This document shows positions 14,691-19,989 of a stretch of 64,000 nt of DNA, one piece after another; the first letter of the stretch is position 1, and each line of letters starts with the position of its first letter. A program made the position numbers and the translations under genes. The stretch is from Candidatus Thalassarchaeaceae archaeon (GTDB lineage Archaea > Thermoplasmatota > Poseidoniia > Poseidoniales > Thalassarchaeaceae). Under the pieces are notes generated by a model that ran no database searches, was not told the DNA's origin, and worked only from the letters and a program-made list of their open reading frames with translations. The stretch is from positions 75,385 through 139,384 of the forward strand of contig JAPYUP010000001.1 of NCBI GenBank assembly GCA_029940695.1, written 5' to 3'.

Positions 14691-15749
14691 TTGATTGATT
14701 ACACGTTGATCGTTGCATACGCCGTACTGGCGCTGAGCGCTTCGTTTCTCTGCAGCATTCTAGAGGCTGTTCTGCTATCGGCGTCGTACGGACATATAGC
14801 TGCTCTCAGAGACACCCATAGTAAGATCAGCCGGACTTGGACTACTTGGAAAGAAGACCCGGAACGTCCTCTCACCGCCATTCTCACACTCAACACCGCT
14901 GCTCACACAATCGGGGCACTCGGAGTTGGTGCAGAGGTCGAGAACCAGTTTGGTGGTGGGCATTCCATATTCCTCGCTTCAGCTATACTCACGTTAGCCA
15001 TTCTGCTGCTCAGCGAGATTCTGCCCAAGACTATCGGAGCACTCTACTGGCGCAGACTAACGATTCCCTCTTACCACATCCTTAGGGTAATGATGGTAAT
15101 TCTATGGGTCATCGTAAAACCAATCGAGTTGATTCGCTCCTTGTTGCCTCGCGTACAAACGGCAACTGTAACGCGTAATGAGCTCTCAGTACTTGCCGAT
15201 ATCGCGGAGGAATCGGATGTAATCGAGGAAGATGAGGAAACAGTCATTCAGAATCTTCTGAAGCTCAGGGAGATGAAGGTTAGTGCCATAATGACTCCCA
15301 GGGTAGTCATGACTACGGTCACTTCTACCGAGACCGTCGGTGAGGTGTTGAAGAGGATCCCCATTATGATTCACGGGAGGATGCCCGTTACTGGCAATAA
15401 CGTTGACGAAGTGAAGGGGTTCGTCCTAAGGAGTGAGATTCTTAGGAGGGCCGCAGGCGATGACTTCACTAAGACTATGATCGAAATCTCTAGGTTTGCA
15501 CGATCCTGTAGTACAGAGGACTCGGTGGACAGGGCACTAGACATTTTACTAGAGAACAAGGAACAGATATTGGTAGCCAAGGACGAGTTTGGAGGCACTG
15601 CGGGACTAATCACTATAGAGGACATTATCGAGACGCTGCTTGGCGTCGAGATAGTGGATGAGTCCGACCAAGATGCAATCGATGAGGGAGTCCTTCATGA
15701 GGACATGAGGGAACTAGCCAAAATTCGCTACGACTATGTGGACGAGTGA
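14691..15749 (+). CDS. CNNM/CorC-family transporter (DUF21 transmembrane domain plus a CBS pair)
   Basis: N-terminal four-TM DUF21-like segment followed by tandem CBS-like regions. 352 aa. Confidence 0.7.
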   Translation: MIDYTLIVAYAVLALSASFLCSILEAVLLSASYGHIAALRDTHSKISRTWTTWKEDPERPLTAILTLNTAAHTIGALGVGAEVENQFGGGHSIFLASAILTLAILLLSEILPKTIGALYWRRLTIPSYHILRVMMVILWVIVKPIELIRSLLPRVQTATVTRNELSVLADIAEESDVIEEDEETVIQNLLKLREMKVSAIMTPRVVMTTVTSTETVGEVLKRIPIMIHGRMPVTGNNVDEVKGFVLRSEILRRAAGDDFTKTMIEISRFARSCSTEDSVDRALDILLENKEQILVAKDEFGGTAGLITIEDIIETLLGVEIVDESDQDAIDEGVLHEDMRELAKIRYDYVDE

Positions 15750-15759
15750 AAAGGACTGT

Positions 15760-16575
15760 CTATTCGGTTCCATCACCAGAGGTGGCGTCACTGACTTCCT
15801 TGTCTTGTAGCCAGCCCCTCTCTGCGGAGTAGTCACCTAACTGCTCCAGCCTTTTCAACCACCCCTTGGCTTCGGCAGTCTTGGTGGTCCTCACCAGCCA
15901 GACCCCGCCAAAGAGCGTGTCCCATAGTCCCATGTTATCCCTCTTGAAGCGGTAGAATAGGTAATCAATCATTGAAGGTAGAAGAAGAGCCAGCCCTATA
16001 CCTAGAAGAACCTGTCCGCTGGTTTCCCCGAGGTCCTGAATAGAAGTGGCGACCATGAGCAAGCCCAACAACACGACTACGAACGTCAGCCCCTTAATCA
16101 ATAGAAAGTAGGGGCTAGGCCGTACACCTTTGGAATTGACATAAGTTGTCCTGCTAATCCAGTTTCCTACAGTTCTGCCGGTCGACCGGGGCATAAAGCC
16201 CAAGTTGAACACCATCAAGAGCAAGCCGAGGATTATGAAATAGGTGAAATCTGCAAAGGCTCCCCAAGCGTTGATTACAAGAATTGGGATACACCACCCA
16301 AAAGAGACTGCGAAGTCCGAACCTCTGCGTATGAGGCGCTGACCGCTGGTTACCTCTTCGAACCCATCTGGTAGCGTCTTGACCTGCCTAGTTTTCCTCA
16401 CTCGTGGAGTGCGGGCCTTCCTTTCTCGTCTTCGAGATCGCGGCTTCTCCTTAGCGGCCTCTTGCACTGGCTCGGGTACAATGACTGTGGTTGGGGGGGG
16501 CGTGGGGGCGACTGGTAGTGGCTCCTGCATGCCCCCTCCAGATTGTATCTTGTCAGCCTTCTCCAGCAAGCCCAT
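15760..16575 (-). CDS. RDD-family integral membrane protein with a Pro/Lys/Arg-rich N-terminal tail
   Basis: RRGSDFAVSFGW and GRTVGNWISRTTYVNSKG match the conserved R..D and GqtlGk...V.dG blocks of RDD proteins. Three or four TM helices. Confidence 0.45.
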   Translation of the reverse strand: MGLLEKADKIQSGGGMQEPLPVAPTPPPTTVIVPEPVQEAAKEKPRSRRRERKARTPRVRKTRQVKTLPDGFEEVTSGQRLIRRGSDFAVSFGWCIPILVINAWGAFADFTYFIILGLLLMVFNLGFMPRSTGRTVGNWISRTTYVNSKGVRPSPYFLLIKGLTFVVVLLGLLMVATSIQDLGETSGQVLLGIGLALLLPSMIDYLFYRFKRDNMGLWDTLFGGVWLVRTTKTAEAKGWLKRLEQLGDYSAERGWLQDKEVSDATSGDGTE

Positions 16576-16578
16576 CTG

Positions 16579-17565
16579 TTAACCCCCATACCTTTCCGCT
16601 ACTCGTTTGTACAGTTCGAAATCGGGGGATTCTACAAAGTTGTGCATGACGGTATCGGGCAGATCGCCAAGGAGGTCGTTAATCATCCCGAAGAAGCGGA
16701 CGCGGGAATCGTCATCCGTATGCTGTGGATCCCTACCCACCTTCTGAAATAGAGCGAATGATTCTGATTCAATGAAGCTATTCGTGAAATCATCAGGCAT
16801 CTCGCCCAAGAGGCTGTTAATGACGACGAAGAATCGATGGAATTCCTCATCAGCAGATCTGAAGCTCTGAATCGCAACGACGAACTCGTCGAAGTCGAGC
16901 GTTCCAGAGTCATCGAGGTCGGCCTTGTCGAAAAAAGATTTGAGGGAATTGAGGTCCAAATTGTACAGTGTCTCGCTGGATATACCCGTGGCGTCGGAGA
17001 CCCTGACGACGAAATCCTCATCATCCATAGCTTCTAGGAATTCTGAGAAAGACATCTCGTTGCCCTCTTCGGGAACGGAAATCAACTCAACTGTCGGCTT
17101 GATGAAGCGCAAGTCGTGTTGCTCCTTCTTCCTCAGGATGATGATTTCTCGGTCCAGTTCAGAGCCGAATCGGTCAGAGAATCTATCCATCAGGCTGCCC
17201 GACTTGCCCGAAGCAATCCGATCTATTTGCCCGTACATACTGTCTCTAGATCCGGTGCCGATACTCGGGTCGGAAGTCTTCCTATTTTCCCAGACTGACT
17301 TGAAGTCCGAGGCCGAGTCCTGCTGATTGGGCATCGGAAGGTCGCCCAAGGAATTGGCTGCGTCAAGGAGATCCGCATCACCACTCAACTCCCGTGGAAA
17401 TCCAAACTGGGGGGGAGGGGAAGGAAGAGGAAAATCGAGCGGCGGGGGTGGCATCACCAATCCCTGAGGTGGTGGCGGCAATGTAGTATTGTCATCATCG
17501 AAGTCTGATTCAATGCTATCCAGAGCATCAACCATGCCATGCTTCCGAAGTCCTCCACTATTCAA
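16579..17565 (-). CDS. EF-hand-containing repeat protein with a Pro-rich N-terminus
   Basis: Canonical 12-residue EF-hand loop DLDDSGTLDFDE, flanked by the helices LKSFFDKA and FVVAIQSF. Internal ~40-aa duplication (FFVVINSLLGEMPDDFTNSFIESESFALFQKV versus FFGMINDLLGDLPDTVMHNFVESPDFELYKRV). Confidence 0.5.
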   Translation of the reverse strand: MNSGGLRKHGMVDALDSIESDFDDDNTTLPPPPQGLVMPPPPLDFPLPSPPPQFGFPRELSGDADLLDAANSLGDLPMPNQQDSASDFKSVWENRKTSDPSIGTGSRDSMYGQIDRIASGKSGSLMDRFSDRFGSELDREIIILRKKEQHDLRFIKPTVELISVPEEGNEMSFSEFLEAMDDEDFVVRVSDATGISSETLYNLDLNSLKSFFDKADLDDSGTLDFDEFVVAIQSFRSADEEFHRFFVVINSLLGEMPDDFTNSFIESESFALFQKVGRDPQHTDDDSRVRFFGMINDLLGDLPDTVMHNFVESPDFELYKRVAERYGG

Positions 17566-17597
17566 TATTCTGTGGTCGCGGGAACGCCGAGCATCGA

Positions 17598-18809
17598 TTA
17601 TGGCCGCGTTACTTCTGCCCAGCCCTTCAGTGAGAGGAATGTGGCCATGGCCTCGCTCACCTCGAAGAGATCCCCCGCGTTGCCCTCAATCCTCTCCCCG
17701 GCTATTTCTGCAGTGGCATCATCGATGAGTATCCTGACCGACATTCGATTTTGCTGACTGAATACCACGGACTCATTCAAGGGCTCGAACCTGTCGCTTG
17801 TGCTGGGATCCAATCTATACAAAGGAAACTCTGTGACTCTGAGGCCGGATTTTCCATGTAGGCTACCAACCCATCGAATAACTCTCTTAGTGTCAACAGT
17901 GACTGCCTCATCTGTCTCACCAGCACTTCCCATGACTACTGAAGCATCACCTTTGACCAACTCCCAGAATATTGGTGTGCACGTCTCGCCGAAAACCAAC
18001 AGGGCCATATCGTCCCGCAGGCGACTGACTCGTTCCGGTGACTCAGCCAGTTCGGCGAGCTCTAATATCCTAGCCTTGCCGGCAGACCTAACTTGGCTTC
18101 GCGGTAGTCTGGCTCTTTTCTTCAATATCCCATGGAGCCTCTCTAGGGTAATTTTCCAATCTGGTCCCTTCTTTGAGATGACTCTGAGTTGTTCCAACAC
18201 GGAGTTCATCCCTAATCTGGCTCGATTTCCCCAACTCACGTCTGGTCCTGCCAGAGCAGATTGGACGTCGATTCCCTCCCCTCGGATGTAATTCACGATC
18301 TCCCTCCTTGCGTTAGAATCAAGGTGAAGTAGATTCGGATCCCTCACGTGAATGTGAAATCCCCGGTGTCCAGAGAATGTGGTTTGGACGTATTCCTCTC
18401 TGAATCCGAACTCTGGGTGCAGAAATTCCGACCAGAGCCTCCAGGCCTGATGCTGTATGGTATCAATCATTGTGGGAAAATCAGTATCCGACACACCCGG
18501 AAGGTGATCCCCATCGAGATCGAAGATGAGATCGGCCCCCAGCCATCCCTTCTCTGACATCTTCCTGTTCGAAGGGCGCTGGTAGTAGGCTGTGCTATGG
18601 AAGCAAGAGTGGGGTGCGCGATTCTTGAGATAGTAAAGTAACTCGGTTTTGCTTTGGAAGGCTCTGTGCCTATCTGGCGGGGCTCCACCCCAAGGAACGA
18701 ACATCCACTCCCTGGATCTCAGCCTAGGTGGAGTCCAGAGCGAAGCGGAATCGAGCGAACCGTAGTACTCAGAGAAACGCAGCGCGAAGCGGCTCCAACC
18801 ACCTGCCAT
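17598..18809 (-). CDS. priS: DNA primase small (catalytic) subunit PriS
   Basis: Catalytic acidic motif LIFDLDGDH and the invariant SGHRGFHIHV (SGxRGxH) motif of archaeo-eukaryotic primases. 403 aa. Confidence 0.75.
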   Translation of the reverse strand: MAGGWSRFALRFSEYYGSLDSASLWTPPRLRSREWMFVPWGGAPPDRHRAFQSKTELLYYLKNRAPHSCFHSTAYYQRPSNRKMSEKGWLGADLIFDLDGDHLPGVSDTDFPTMIDTIQHQAWRLWSEFLHPEFGFREEYVQTTFSGHRGFHIHVRDPNLLHLDSNARREIVNYIRGEGIDVQSALAGPDVSWGNRARLGMNSVLEQLRVISKKGPDWKITLERLHGILKKRARLPRSQVRSAGKARILELAELAESPERVSRLRDDMALLVFGETCTPIFWELVKGDASVVMGSAGETDEAVTVDTKRVIRWVGSLHGKSGLRVTEFPLYRLDPSTSDRFEPLNESVVFSQQNRMSVRILIDDATAEIAGERIEGNAGDLFEVSEAMATFLSLKGWAEVTRP

Positions 18810-18936
18810 GGATTAGCAAGAGTCGGGTGGGACATAAGTTTTCAATCAGCCCAGTTGGAGTCCCGTGACTGGTTTTCCCTCGGTCGCTGGTGCTGCTCCC
18901 GTAGCCTCAACATAGGCCTCCCAGCAAACGTACTCG

Positions 18937-19989
18937 TTGTCCATTACGATTGCCTCAGCGAAAGTTAGGGCCCGTCCAGTGATAGCGCAAACCGGTCCGA
19001 GTTGTCCTGATGCGGTTGACAACTTGCTTGGGTCAGGCATGGCATTGCCTGCTACGCTTGATTTTTCATCCTTGCGAACCAAGTGTCCCCATGCAAACCC
19101 ATTTCAACTCAATGGCCGGCGAGGAACCGTGTCAGTTGAACCACTGCTAGTTAGAATAGGACATTCACCAGACCCTGATGACGCATTCATGTTCTTCGGA
19201 TTAACTTCAGGCGTGATAGAAACCCCAGGACGTGTGTACGAGCATTCCCTTGTCGACATAGACACCCTGAATATAGAGGCCCGAAAGAGCACCTACGAGG
19301 TCTCCGCAGTTAGCATTCGCTCGTTCCCAGATATCTCAGAGGAATACGCCCTGATGAACTGCGGTGCCTCTATGGGCGAGGGATACGGTCCGATGGTCAT
19401 CTCCAATATGCCAATGAGTGAGGAAGAGGCTAGCGAGAAGACAATTGCAATTCCTGGTTTCAGCACCAGTGCCTTCCTCACGCTGAGACTGGCATTAGGA
19501 GAGGTTAGTGTGGTCGAAGTTCCCTTCGACGAAATTCTCCCTGGTGTAATCCTTGGGAAGTACGACGTCGGTGTAATCATCCATGAAGGTCAGCTGACAT
19601 GGAAGGGTGACGGCGTGCATCTTGTTCTGGATCTTGGTATGTGGTGGAATCAAACAACGGGGCTGCCTTTACCACTTGGGGGGAACGTCGTCAGGAAGGA
19701 CCTAGGTGAAATAGTTTGCAGAGAAATCACAAGGGACGTCAGAGCGAGTATCAGACATGCACTGGATAACCCAGAGAAGGCTCTTGAGTTCGCACGTCAA
19801 TGGGGGAGGGGGATCGATGAGAGCACCAACGAAAAGTTCGTATCGATGTATGTGAACGAGCGTACAGTCGATTATGGACCAGAAGGCCGTGAGGCAATCA
19901 GGCTATTCTTGAAGAAAGGACAGGAAATCGGGCTTGTTAGGGGGGACATGGATGTGCGGGACATTCAATTCGTAGGGCATGATGATTAG
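18937..19989 (+). CDS. mqnD: MqnA/MqnD-family (VitK2 biosynthesis, PBP-like fold) protein, probably 1,4-dihydroxy-6-naphthoate synthase MqnD
   Basis: GHSPDPDDAFMFFGL N-terminal block and a periplasmic-binding-protein-like profile. Paralog of the mqnA ORF in the same cluster. The A/D assignment is tentative. Confidence 0.55.
   Translation: MSITIASAKVRARPVIAQTGPSCPDAVDNLLGSGMALPATLDFSSLRTKCPHANPFQLNGRRGTVSVEPLLVRIGHSPDPDDAFMFFGLTSGVIETPGRVYEHSLVDIDTLNIEARKSTYEVSAVSIRSFPDISEEYALMNCGASMGEGYGPMVISNMPMSEEEASEKTIAIPGFSTSAFLTLRLALGEVSVVEVPFDEILPGVILGKYDVGVIIHEGQLTWKGDGVHLVLDLGMWWNQTTGLPLPLGGNVVRKDLGEIVCREITRDVRASIRHALDNPEKALEFARQWGRGIDESTNEKFVSMYVNERTVDYGPEGREAIRLFLKKGQEIGLVRGDMDVRDIQFVGHDD

What the first reader, a model, noticed from the sequence alone, without database searches (positions are those of the whole stretch)
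14691..17565. EF-hand repeat protein next to an RDD membrane protein and a CNNM transporter
The 328-aa protein has a textbook EF-hand Ca-binding loop (DLDDSGTLDFDE), an internal ~40-aa duplication and a Pro-rich N-terminus. Canonical EF-hand proteins are rare in archaea. Its neighbours are a CNNM/CorC divalent-cation transporter and an RDD-family membrane protein whose Pro/Lys-rich tail resembles the EF-hand protein's N-terminus. Together these might form a divalent-cation sensing or transport module.
Basis: partly seen in the sequence, partly recalled or inferred. Interest (0 to 1): 0.5.

Follow-up and report, generated by a model that had tools for sequence, protein, structure and literature searches.

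The report
EF-hand adaptor paired with RDD protein
A marine archaeon's protein with a calcium-binding motif belongs to a widespread, unstudied two-gene unit (an adaptor protein followed by a partner that always begins with the peptide MGLLEKA), and the magnesium-transporter gene beside it looks like a mere neighbour.

Summary
A Marine Group IIb archaeal gene (true start probably ATG 17535, 318 aa) encodes a Pro-rich, very acidic protein with one canonical EF-hand loop and a real 38-aa internal duplication. It lies between an RDD-like membrane protein gene and the primase gene PriS, and a CNNM gene converges on the RDD gene.

The three-gene cation-module reading is not supported. The EF-hand pair is a roughly 70-aa insertion found in only one subclade (41 of 84 related loci). 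The 43 sister orthologs have a short acidic linker there, and more distant relatives have a coiled coil. CNNM adjacency is equally frequent with and without the EF-hand, and sits in a block of housekeeping genes.

The conserved unit is a gene pair. A protein ending in a six-helix double-repeat domain is followed on the same strand by a protein starting MGLL(E/D)KA. That held in 73 of 73 MGII loci and 50 of 53 distant metagenome loci, where the partner is a FlaI-like ATPase, an RDD protein or a DUF2226 protein.

Best explanation (inferred): the double-repeat domain docks the partner's N-terminal peptide, and the EF-hand makes this branch calcium-responsive. Function is unknown.

The parts
16579..17535 (-). 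Gene X: a 318-aa acidic adaptor protein (net charge about -38). The start is taken as ATG 17535; the first-stage ORF began at TTG 17565.
   Evidence: The identical 318-aa sequence is recorded in public collections as 'hypothetical protein'.
17311..17535 (-). Pro-rich, acidic, disordered N-terminus (aa 1-75) with LPPPPxG-type motifs.
   Evidence: P20, P21, P23 and G25 are invariant; pLDDT below 50; 16 Pro, net charge -13.
17077..17310 (-). Family core motif (aa 76-153): SDFKSVWExRK ... YGxIDRIxSGxxGSLMDRFSDRFGSELDREIIxLRKKEQ ... IKPTVELIS.
   Evidence: the best-conserved stretch across all MGII orthologs; it is hit independently (profile positions about 20-85) in distant relatives; family B keeps IDRxxxGxxLSLxERFxxxFG.
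16852..17073 (-). Inserted EF-hand pair (aa 155-228). The first loop is degenerate (VPEEGNEMSFSE) and the second is canonical.
   Evidence: present in L001-L041 and absent in L042-L084; matches troponin C and CDPK lobes; helices with pLDDT 74-81; 31-41% identity, end to end, to dinoflagellate repeat units.
16885..16920 (-). Canonical 12-residue EF loop DLDDSGTLDFDE (aa 206-217 of the 318-aa protein).
   Evidence: D206, D208, S210, G211, D214, F215 and E217 are invariant; the loop is conserved in 41 of 41 loci that carry the module.
16738..16851 (-). Double-repeat (DR) domain, repeat 1 (aa 229-266): FFxVINxLLGEMPDDFxxxFIESxSFxLFxxV.
   Evidence: z = 17 for the duplication; helices 1-3 of a six-helix model with pLDDT 92.
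16600..16713 (-). DR domain, repeat 2 (aa 275-312): FFxMINDLLGDLPDxVMxxFxxSxDFELYKxV.
   Evidence: this domain ends many otherwise unrelated archaeal proteins; precomputed weak Pfam PF27359 (TP_0179) hits in homologs.
15760..16575 (-). Partner gene: a 271-aa RDD-like membrane protein with about four hydrophobic segments (aa about 88-207). It starts 3 nt after the stop codon of X.
   Evidence: RDD 25.4 bits against a 24.1 cut-off; 5 of 15 orthologs match RDD, the best at 1e-15; hydropathy; downstream on the same strand in 73 of 73 loci.
16555..16575 (-). N-terminal peptide MGLLEKA of the partner. It is the proposed docking motif for the DR domain.
   Evidence: M1, G2, L3, L4 and K6 are invariant across partners that are otherwise only 21-62% identical; all 54 ORFs with this N-terminus in the 62 metagenome loci sit next to a DR-domain gene; all synonymous codons are used, so selection acts on the peptide.
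16336..16554 (-). Pro/Lys/Arg-rich cytoplasmic tail of the partner (aa 8-80, net charge +7).
15811..15867 (-). Conserved C-terminal motif KGWLKRLEQLGDYSAERGW of the partner.
   Evidence: RLExLGDY/W is conserved out to distant loci L086, L089 and L095.
17556..17574 (-). Conserved 19-nt element CACAGAATATTGAATAGTG, upstream of X. It is a candidate promoter or regulator site for an X-RDD transcript.
   Evidence: exactly one copy in 61 MGIIb loci, always at this position; unique in the window, with 0.08 matches expected by chance; no Rfam match, and folding z = 0.08.
14691..15749 (+). CNNM (DUF21) + CBS-pair gene, convergent on the partner gene with the two stop codons 10 nt apart. Judged a syntenic neighbour, not a component.
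17598..18809 (-). DNA primase small subunit PriS, the upstream co-directional neighbour. A functional link is not established.
   Evidence: upstream on the same strand in 78 of 78 loci. Also seen in L085, L086 and L089.

Best explanation
Genes 16579-17535 (X) and 15760-16575 (RDD-like) form the Marine Group II version of a widespread, uncharacterised archaeal two-gene cassette.

Shown:
- The first gene of the cassette ends in a six-helix domain built from two 40-aa repeats (the DR domain).
- The second gene, immediately downstream on the same strand, always begins with the peptide M-G-L-L-(E/D)-K-A.
- The rest of the second protein varies by lineage: RDD membrane protein, FlaI/PilB-like ATPase, DUF2226 protein or coiled-coil protein.
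- In one MGIIb subclade, which includes this window, a pair of EF-hands (first loop degenerate, second canonical) was inserted between the core motif and the DR domain.
- The CNNM gene is a conserved neighbour inside a housekeeping syntenic block.

Inferred:
- The DR domain of X binds the MGLLEKA peptide of its partner. [quoted passage not shown]
- The conserved core motif and the proline-rich N-terminus of X are then free to recruit another, unknown factor.
- Ca2+ binding at the single intact loop changes the geometry or stiffness of the linker, making the adaptor's output calcium-dependent.
- CNNM is not part of the unit.
For: Pairing in MGII:
- The RDD-like gene follows X on the same strand in 73 of 73 loci, with gaps of -65 to +56 nt.
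- Every partner starts MGLLEKA.

Pairing outside MGII:
- In 62 metagenome loci found with a distant family-B profile, 50 of 53 evaluable DR-domain genes are followed within 150 nt by an MGL[LR]-starting protein.
- All 54 such N-termini among 452 ORFs of at least 100 aa lie beside a DR-domain gene.
- Partners include 23 T2SSE/PilB3-like ATPases, RDD proteins (58.7 bits in L087) and DUF2226 proteins.
- An Altiarchaeales DnaA-like/DR fusion is followed by a protein starting MGLLDKAKK.
- The motif recurs internally (GLLxKAxxKK) in the N-terminal extensions of some ATPases.

Peptide-level selection: all Gly, Leu, Glu and Lys codons are used across 125 sites.

DR domain: confident model with pLDDT 92 and pTM 0.82, six helices arranged as two three-helix units.

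EF-hand:
- It is an insertion (alignment).
- On a tree of the shared regions, the EF-containing and EF-lacking groups are each monophyletic sisters, and the outgroups lack the EF-hand.
- Loop ligands are invariant in 41 of 41 loci.
- Helix-loop-helix geometry appears in the model, with troponin C and CDPK matches.

CNNM independence.

Own upstream element.
Against: - No binding, structural or expression data exist. The DR-peptide contact is inferred only from gene neighbourhood and conservation.
- No complex model could be run.
- Exceptions to the pairing exist. The SH3-like+DR family in L090 and the TM+DR protein P0183 are not followed by an MGLL protein.
- The window protein's own EF-hand_1 score is below Pfam's cut-off (23.4 against 25.4).
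- The first EF loop is degenerate, so affinity could be low or the module could be purely structural.
- CNNM stays near the pair even in distant relatives: co-directional in L086 and nearby in L089. A loose functional tie cannot be excluded.
Confidence: 0.5

Rival explanations
1. X senses Ca2+ or Mg2+ and, together with the RDD protein (as a cation/proton antiporter) and the CNNM/CorB-type Mg2+ transporter, forms a three-gene divalent-cation sensing and transport module.
For: - The EF loop is canonical and conserved.
- One RDD-family protein was reported to be a Na+(Li+,K+)/H+ antiporter (PMC5996927).
- CNNM is adjacent in 46 of 67 evaluable loci. It is still close in distant relatives L086 (co-directional) and L089.
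Against: - CNNM adjacency is the same in EF-containing loci (21 of 32) and EF-lacking loci (25 of 35).
- CNNM is convergent. It is lost, moved or separated by inserted genes in about 21 loci.
- The whole MqnA-HEAT-PriS-X-RDD-CNNM-MetRS block is syntenic and functionally mixed.
- Half of the orthologs have no EF-hand at all.
- The same adaptor family pairs with ATPases and DUF2226 proteins elsewhere.
- The antiporter role did not carry over to B. subtilis SppI (PMC7568657).
Confidence: 0.1
2. The X-RDD pair serves DNA replication. It would tether primase or the replisome to the membrane, with the DR domain acting as a replication-linked adaptor.
For: - PriS lies immediately upstream and is co-directional in 78 of 78 MGII loci. 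This also holds in distant relatives L085, L086 and L089.
- A small conserved ORF precedes PriS in 78 loci.
- In Altiarchaeales, a DnaA-type AAA+ ATPase carries the DR domain in place of its DNA-binding end.
Against: - A gene-specific conserved element with promoter-like placement separates PriS from X.
- In family B the upstream gene encodes a VWA protein, not PriS.
- Most non-MGII partners are pilus-type ATPases.
- Synteny across Poseidoniales is high in general.
Confidence: 0.1
3. The EF-hand pair does not act as a calcium switch. It is a compact helical spacer that replaced the ancestral coiled-coil linker, and X works the same way with or without it.
For: - Sister orthologs function with only a short acidic linker, and outgroups with a coiled coil.
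- The first loop is degenerate (sequence).
- The window protein's Pfam score is below the cut-off.
Against: All liganding positions of the second loop (D1, D3, S5, G6, E12) are invariant across 41 loci whose proteins are otherwise down to about 46% identical. That conservation is hard to explain without metal binding.
Confidence: 0.15
4. MGLLEKA is not a ligand of the DR domain. It is an N-terminal amphipathic membrane-binding or sorting signal, and the two genes are linked for another reason, for example because X is a chaperone or assembly factor.
For: - The motif is short, amphipathic and followed by basic residues.
- N-terminal amphipathic helices serve as membrane anchors in other division and pilus proteins (my own knowledge, not tested here).
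- No structural evidence for a binding groove was obtained.
Against: - The RDD partner is already an integral membrane protein and needs no extra anchor.
- The motif occurs only next to DR-domain genes in the loci examined.
- The motif is repeated in tandem in some ATPase extensions, which fits multivalent binding.
Confidence: 0.2

Closest known systems
EF-hand calcium sensors (calmodulin, troponin C N-lobe, CDPK regulatory domain; Pfam PF00036/PF13499)
   Same: - A 12-residue loop with canonical ligands.
- Flanking helices.
- Pairing with a second helix-loop-helix.
- Sequence matches to CDPK and troponin C lobes.
   Different: - Only one intact loop.
- The pair is a single roughly 70-aa insertion inside an otherwise unrelated adaptor protein.
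- An extra short helix (VSDATGISSETL) lies between the two hands.
- The protein is archaeal and restricted to one MGIIb subclade.
Dinoflagellate multi-EF-hand repeat proteins (Ansanella, Biecheleria, Symbiodinium; e.g. CAE7651744.1)
   Same: - The whole 68-71-aa unit aligns end to end at 31-41% identity, about 44 bits per unit. The alignment includes the unusual inter-hand segment.
- This is better than any solved EF-hand protein (26.9 bits).
   Different: - Those proteins carry 6-9 tandem units, with both loops canonical.
- They have none of the core motif, DR domain or RDD partner.
- Single-unit prokaryotic relatives of similar closeness could have been ranked out of the hit list, so the direction and reality of any transfer are untested.
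RDD family membrane proteins (PF06271; H. andaensis RDD antiporter, B. subtilis SppI)
   Same: - A multi-pass membrane core.
- A Pfam match just above the cut-off.
- An Arg/Lys ... Asp pattern before TM1 and a GLWD motif after the last TM segment.
- Like SppI, it appears to work with a gene-adjacent partner protein (PMC7568657).
   Different: - A very divergent branch; only 5 of 15 orthologs match Pfam.
- It has the invariant MGLLEKA N-terminus, a basic tail and a conserved RLExLGDY C-terminal motif, which are not family features.
- No evidence of transport activity.
Pfam PF27359 'TP_0179' (named after a Treponema pallidum hypothetical protein)
   Same: Precomputed weak or faint hits of this family fall on homologs of X and on family-B and SH3-like proteins that carry the DR domain.
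   Different: - The model is absent from the local Pfam copy, so it could not be scored here.
- No functional literature was found for TP0179.
- Nothing was found on its coupling to an MGLL-starting neighbour.
CNNM/CorB-type Mg2+ transporters (DUF21 + CBS pair)
   Same: The neighbour at 14691-15749 has both domains (85.2 and 43.1 bits).
   Different: - It lacks a CorC_HlyC C-terminal domain hit.
- Gene-neighbourhood statistics give no specific tie to the EF-hand protein.

Membership tests
EF-hand (PF00036 / PF13499) | 12-residue loop with oxygen ligands at positions 1, 3, 5 and 12, Gly at 6 and a hydrophobic residue at 8 | tested here: met
   The loop DLDDSGTLDFDE fits. D206, D208, S210, G211 and E217 are invariant in 12 aligned orthologs and in 41 of 41 loci.
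EF-hand (PF00036 / PF13499) | Score above Pfam's gathering threshold | tested here: inconclusive
   The window protein scores 23.4 bits against 25.4 (below). Orthologs P0006, P0007, P0030 and P0057 score 28-31 bits (above). The EH-domain model scores 25.7 against 22.
EF-hand (PF00036 / PF13499) | Helix-loop-helix geometry, paired with a second hand | tested here: met
   The AF2 model shows helices 195-205 and 215-225 flanking the loop, preceded by helices 163-183, with pLDDT 74-81. Local Foldseek hits to troponin C N-lobes are weak (E about 0.7-1). The first loop, VPEEGNEMSFSE, is degenerate.
EF-hand (PF00036 / PF13499) | Binds Ca2+ | not testable with these tools
   Needs recombinant protein.
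RDD family (PF06271) | Pfam score above the gathering threshold | tested here: met
   25.4 bits against 24.1, covering profile positions 41-135 only. 5 of 15 orthologous partners match at E <= 0.01. The L087 partner scores 58.7 bits.
RDD family (PF06271) | Multi-pass membrane protein | tested here: met
   Four hydrophobic segments between aa 88 and 207.
RDD family (PF06271) | Conserved Arg, Asp, Asp | tested here: inconclusive
   The alignment shows R/K...D before TM1 (D in 12 of 15, N in 3) and GLW(D/E) after the last TM segment. Correspondence to the Pfam columns was judged by eye against the L087 RDD protein, not computed.
CNNM/CorC transporters | CNNM (DUF21) transmembrane domain plus CBS pair | tested here: met
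   PF01595 at 85.2 bits; PF00571 at 43.1 bits in two stretches.
   CNNM is adjacent in 21 of 32 EF-containing loci and 25 of 35 EF-lacking loci. It is convergent, and it is absent or rearranged in others.
DR-domain / MGLL-peptide cassette (proposed here) | A gene ending in the double-repeat domain is followed on the same strand by a gene whose product starts MGL[LR][DE..]K/..A | tested here: met
   In the window, these are the only DR domain and the only MGLL N-terminus in 64 kb, and they are adjacent. The rule held in 73 of 73 MGII loci, 50 of 53 metagenome loci and Altiarchaeales locus L153.
Pfam PF27359 (TP_0179) | Match to the family model | tested here: inconclusive
   Only precomputed weak or faint hits on homologs exist. 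The model is not in the local Pfam library.

The most novel reading that the evidence does not exclude
The DR-domain/MGLLEKA-peptide gene pair is an undescribed, widespread archaeal domain-peptide tethering system found in Thermoplasmatota (including MGII) and Altiarchaeota. It couples varied N-terminal modules (Pro-rich adaptors, coiled coils, TM helices, a DnaA-like ATPase) to varied effectors (FlaI/PilB-like ATPases, RDD membrane proteins, DUF2226 proteins). In one Marine Group IIb lineage it became calcium-responsive by capturing an EF-hand pair of the type otherwise seen in dinoflagellates, that is, by eukaryote-to-archaeon domain transfer in the plankton.
Probability: 0.3. Interest if true: 0.75.

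Novelty: new variant of a known kind. Interest (0 to 1): 0.55.

Why it matters
Marine Group II archaea are abundant and uncultured, and almost nothing is known of their cell biology or signalling. If the reading is right, three things follow.

- The locus gives a concrete, testable domain-peptide pair (DR domain and MGLLEKA). That pair would organise membrane proteins and pilus-type ATPases in several archaeal phyla.
- It offers a natural experiment, because sister clades carry the same adaptor with and without an EF-hand. This could show whether calcium signalling operates in planktonic archaea.
- The apparent kinship of the EF module with dinoflagellate repeats would be a rare case of a eukaryotic signalling domain grafted into an archaeal protein.

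The result also warns against reading function from adjacency inside the highly syntenic Poseidoniales genomes.

Tried and rejected
- NCBIfam gave no family for X or the RDD-like protein.
- Foldseek of the full-length model against the PDB gave no match with E <= 0.001, only weak EF-hand hits.
- The afdb50 fold library was unavailable.
- The search for homologous proteins with a diverse DR-domain alignment returned nothing, probably a word-index limitation, so that search was wasted.
- Literature searches for TP0179, PF27359, DUF2226 and the MGLLEKA/MGLLDKA strings found nothing functional.
- Homology between the two Pro-rich tails was rejected as compositional.
- An RNA element in the PriS-X spacer was rejected: no Rfam match and folding z = 0.08.
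- The idea that the 19-nt element is the generic promoter consensus of this genome was rejected, because it is unique in the 64-kb window.
It was re-run without them.
- Electrostatic pairing of acidic X with the basic RDD tail was considered as a general rule and dropped. Family-B adaptors are themselves Lys-rich.


Full report
**Where we are.**
- The window is from a Marine Group IIb archaeon (Thalassarchaeaceae, Poseidoniales).
- Close homologs of the target protein carry those names.
- All 80 species-level genome loci retrieved are Poseidoniales/MGII MAGs.
- The local gene order is MetRS (-), CNNM+CBS (+, 14691-15749), RDD-like (-, 15760-16575), the EF-hand protein X (-, 16579-17565 as listed), PriS (-, 17598-18809), then menaquinone (MqnA-like) and HEAT genes.

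**Observation check.**
- The EF loop DLDDSGTLDFDE is canonical at every position. It is the only such loop in the window.
- Pfam EF-hand_1 gives 23.4 bits, against a cut-off of 25.4. Orthologs reach 28-31 bits.
- The best PDB sequence matches are CDPK and troponin C EF lobes.
- The 38-aa internal duplication scores 93 against 20.7 +/- 4.2 for shuffles (z = 17).
- The N-terminus is Pro-rich.
- The supposed resemblance to the RDD protein's tail is compositional only (z = 2.5).
- The real start is very probably ATG 17535 (318 aa). All close homologs and the public gene calls start there. The 10 extra codons translate a conserved non-coding element.

**The EF-hand is a clade-specific insertion.**
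- I extracted the orthologs from 84 MGII loci. The loop is present, with D1, D3, S5, G6 and E12 invariant, in L001-L041.
- L042-L084 orthologs (241-291 aa) have no loop.
- The alignment shows that these lack the whole roughly 70-aa EF pair and have a short acidic linker instead. The flanking core motif and C-terminal repeats align without difficulty.
- More distant relatives from a profile search of 1.84 billion representatives carry a coiled-coil segment at that position and never an EF-hand.
- A neighbour-joining tree of the shared regions makes the EF-containing and EF-lacking groups reciprocally monophyletic sisters, with EF-less outgroups. One gain in the EF-containing lineage is the most parsimonious history.
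- The first loop of the pair (VPEEGNEMSFSE) is degenerate, so there is one plausible Ca2+ site.
- Outside the family, the best matches to the EF region are dinoflagellate proteins with 6-9 tandem copies of the same unit: Ansanella, Biecheleria and Symbiodinium.
- Each unit aligns end to end at 31-41% identity and about 44 bits. That is clearly better than any solved EF-hand (26.9 bits).
- This hints at a eukaryotic origin. However, the hit list is ranked by whole-protein score, so equally close single-unit prokaryotic proteins could have been missed.

**CNNM is a neighbour, not a partner.**

| Locus group | Adjacent and convergent | Separated or rearranged | Absent |
|---|---|---|---|
| EF-containing (32 evaluable) | 21 | 9 | 2 |
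| EF-lacking (35 evaluable) | 25 | 6 | 4 |

- The whole block MqnA-HEAT-PriS-X-RDD-CNNM-MetRS is syntenic across the order and mixes unrelated housekeeping functions.
- CNNM does remain close in distant relatives L086 and L089. A loose tie cannot be excluded, but nothing specific supports one.

**The real conserved unit.**
- The RDD-like gene follows X on the same strand in 73 of 73 evaluable loci, with gaps of -65 to +56 nt.
- Every partner begins MGLLEKA. M1, G2, L3, L4 and K6 are invariant across partners that are otherwise only 21-62% identical, including distant loci L085-L095.
- The C-terminal double repeat of X (the DR domain) is hit on its own at the C-terminus of many unrelated proteins:
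  - TM-anchored small proteins;
  - SH3-like proteins;
  - a second family (family B) that shares the core motif;
  - an Altiarchaeales DnaA-type ATPase.
- Family B (P0240) sits in a different context, after a VWA gene. It is again followed, with overlapping stop and start codons, by a clear RDD protein (58.7 bits) that starts MGLLDKAKEKK.
- A metagenome scan with family B returned 62 loci.
- In 50 of 53 evaluable cases the gene after the DR-domain gene starts MGL[LR].... All 54 such N-termini among 452 ORFs of at least 100 aa lie next to a DR-domain gene. The three apparent exceptions look like start-codon artefacts in at least two cases.
- The partners there are mostly T2SSE/PilB3-like ATPases, annotated FlaI in Thermoplasmata and Thermoplasmatota MAGs. 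Others are DUF2226 proteins (Altiarchaeota) or long coiled-coil proteins.
- The Altiarchaeales DnaA-DR fusion is followed by a DUF2226 protein starting MGLLDKAKKMKQ.
- Some ATPase N-terminal extensions repeat GLLxKAxxKK several times.
- Codon usage at the motif is fully degenerate, so the peptide is the selected object.
- Exceptions exist: L090 and P0183.

**Structure.**
- The full-length model is poor in the N-terminal half (disordered) and moderate in the EF pair and C-terminus.
- Modelled alone with a 47-sequence alignment, the DR domain is confident (pLDDT 92, pTM 0.82). It is made of two three-helix units.
- The RDD-like protein has about four hydrophobic segments. It carries R/K...D and GLW(D/E) motifs compatible with the RDD signature. 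It is nevertheless a divergent member, since only 5 of 15 orthologs match Pfam.
- The literature gives RDD no settled function. One report describes an antiporter (PMC5996927). Another describes a regulatory partner of the SppA protease (PMC7568657). A third remarks on an intramembrane binding site facing the cytoplasm (PMC12419801).

**Mechanism proposed.**
- Shown: X and the RDD-like protein are a conserved, tightly linked gene pair. The DR domain and the MGLLEKA N-terminus co-occur as neighbours across phyla. The EF pair is a derived insertion with intact ligands.
- Inferred: the DR domain binds the partner's N-terminal peptide and tethers X to the membrane. The core motif and Pro-rich arm recruit something else. 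Ca2+ at the single loop modulates the linker.
- The cellular process served is unknown.
- Rivals are listed separately with their evidence: the three-gene cation module, a replication link via PriS and DnaA, the EF pair as an inert spacer, and MGLL as a membrane helix.

**Novelty.**
- EF-hand and calcium-binding families specific to MGII subgroups were already noted in bulk analyses (PMC9258230).
- The DR domain appears to exist in Pfam as PF27359.
- I found nothing on the DR/MGLL pairing or on this architecture.
- I rate it a new variant of a known kind (an EF-hand-bearing adaptor), with a more novel reading that the evidence does not exclude.

Noticed in passing
window 17556-17574 (- strand): A 19-nt element, CACAGAATATTGAATAGTG, lies between the PriS stop codon and the X start codon. 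It occurs exactly once, at the same place, in 61 MGIIb loci (near-identical in most others), although the flanking proteins have diverged to about 40% identity. It is unique in the 64-kb window, has no Rfam match and has no significant fold. It is probably a gene-specific promoter or regulator site, about 20-45 nt upstream of the start codon (21 nt in this window).
   Followed up: partly
window 16852-17073 (EF module); proteins P0125-P0130, P0288-P0290: The closest relatives of the EF-hand pair outside the family are dinoflagellate proteins (Ansanella, Biecheleria, Symbiodinium). These carry 6-9 tandem copies of the same 70-aa unit, at 31-41% identity per unit. This may reflect eukaryote-to-archaeon domain transfer. 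No phylogeny was built.
   Followed up: partly
L153 4001-6732 (Altiarchaeales, MCBF01000001.1): A 'DnaA' protein has a bacterial-type DnaA ATPase domain, but the DR domain takes the place of the DNA-binding end. It is followed, with overlapping stop and start codons, by a DUF2226 protein that starts MGLLDKAKKMKQ.
   Followed up: partly
L110 1824-3977; L101 4940-6796; L140 4134-6032: FlaI/PilB3-like ATPases in Thermoplasmata-type contigs carry long Lys/Glu-rich N-terminal extensions. In these, the start motif recurs internally two to four times (for example KGLLKKAQEKKQ and RGLLAKVKDKK), which suggests multivalent binding.
   Followed up: no
window 18846-19082 (- strand): A small 78-aa ORF directly upstream of PriS on the same strand is conserved in 78 of the 84 MGII loci (45-94% identity). 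It has no family assignment. The co-directional string is therefore small ORF - PriS - X - RDD.
   Followed up: partly
window 15747-15762: The CNNM and RDD-like genes converge, with only 10 nt between their stop codons. That leaves essentially no room for separate terminators.
   Followed up: no
L087 2496-5911 (and L088): In family B the cassette is preceded by a VWA-domain gene, giving the string VWA - adaptor - RDD. Here the adaptor is Lys-rich rather than acidic.
   Followed up: no
L085 706-2994; L086 984-3341: In the more distant relatives, a large WD40 beta-propeller gene lies between the two MqnA-like genes of the otherwise conserved block.
   Followed up: no
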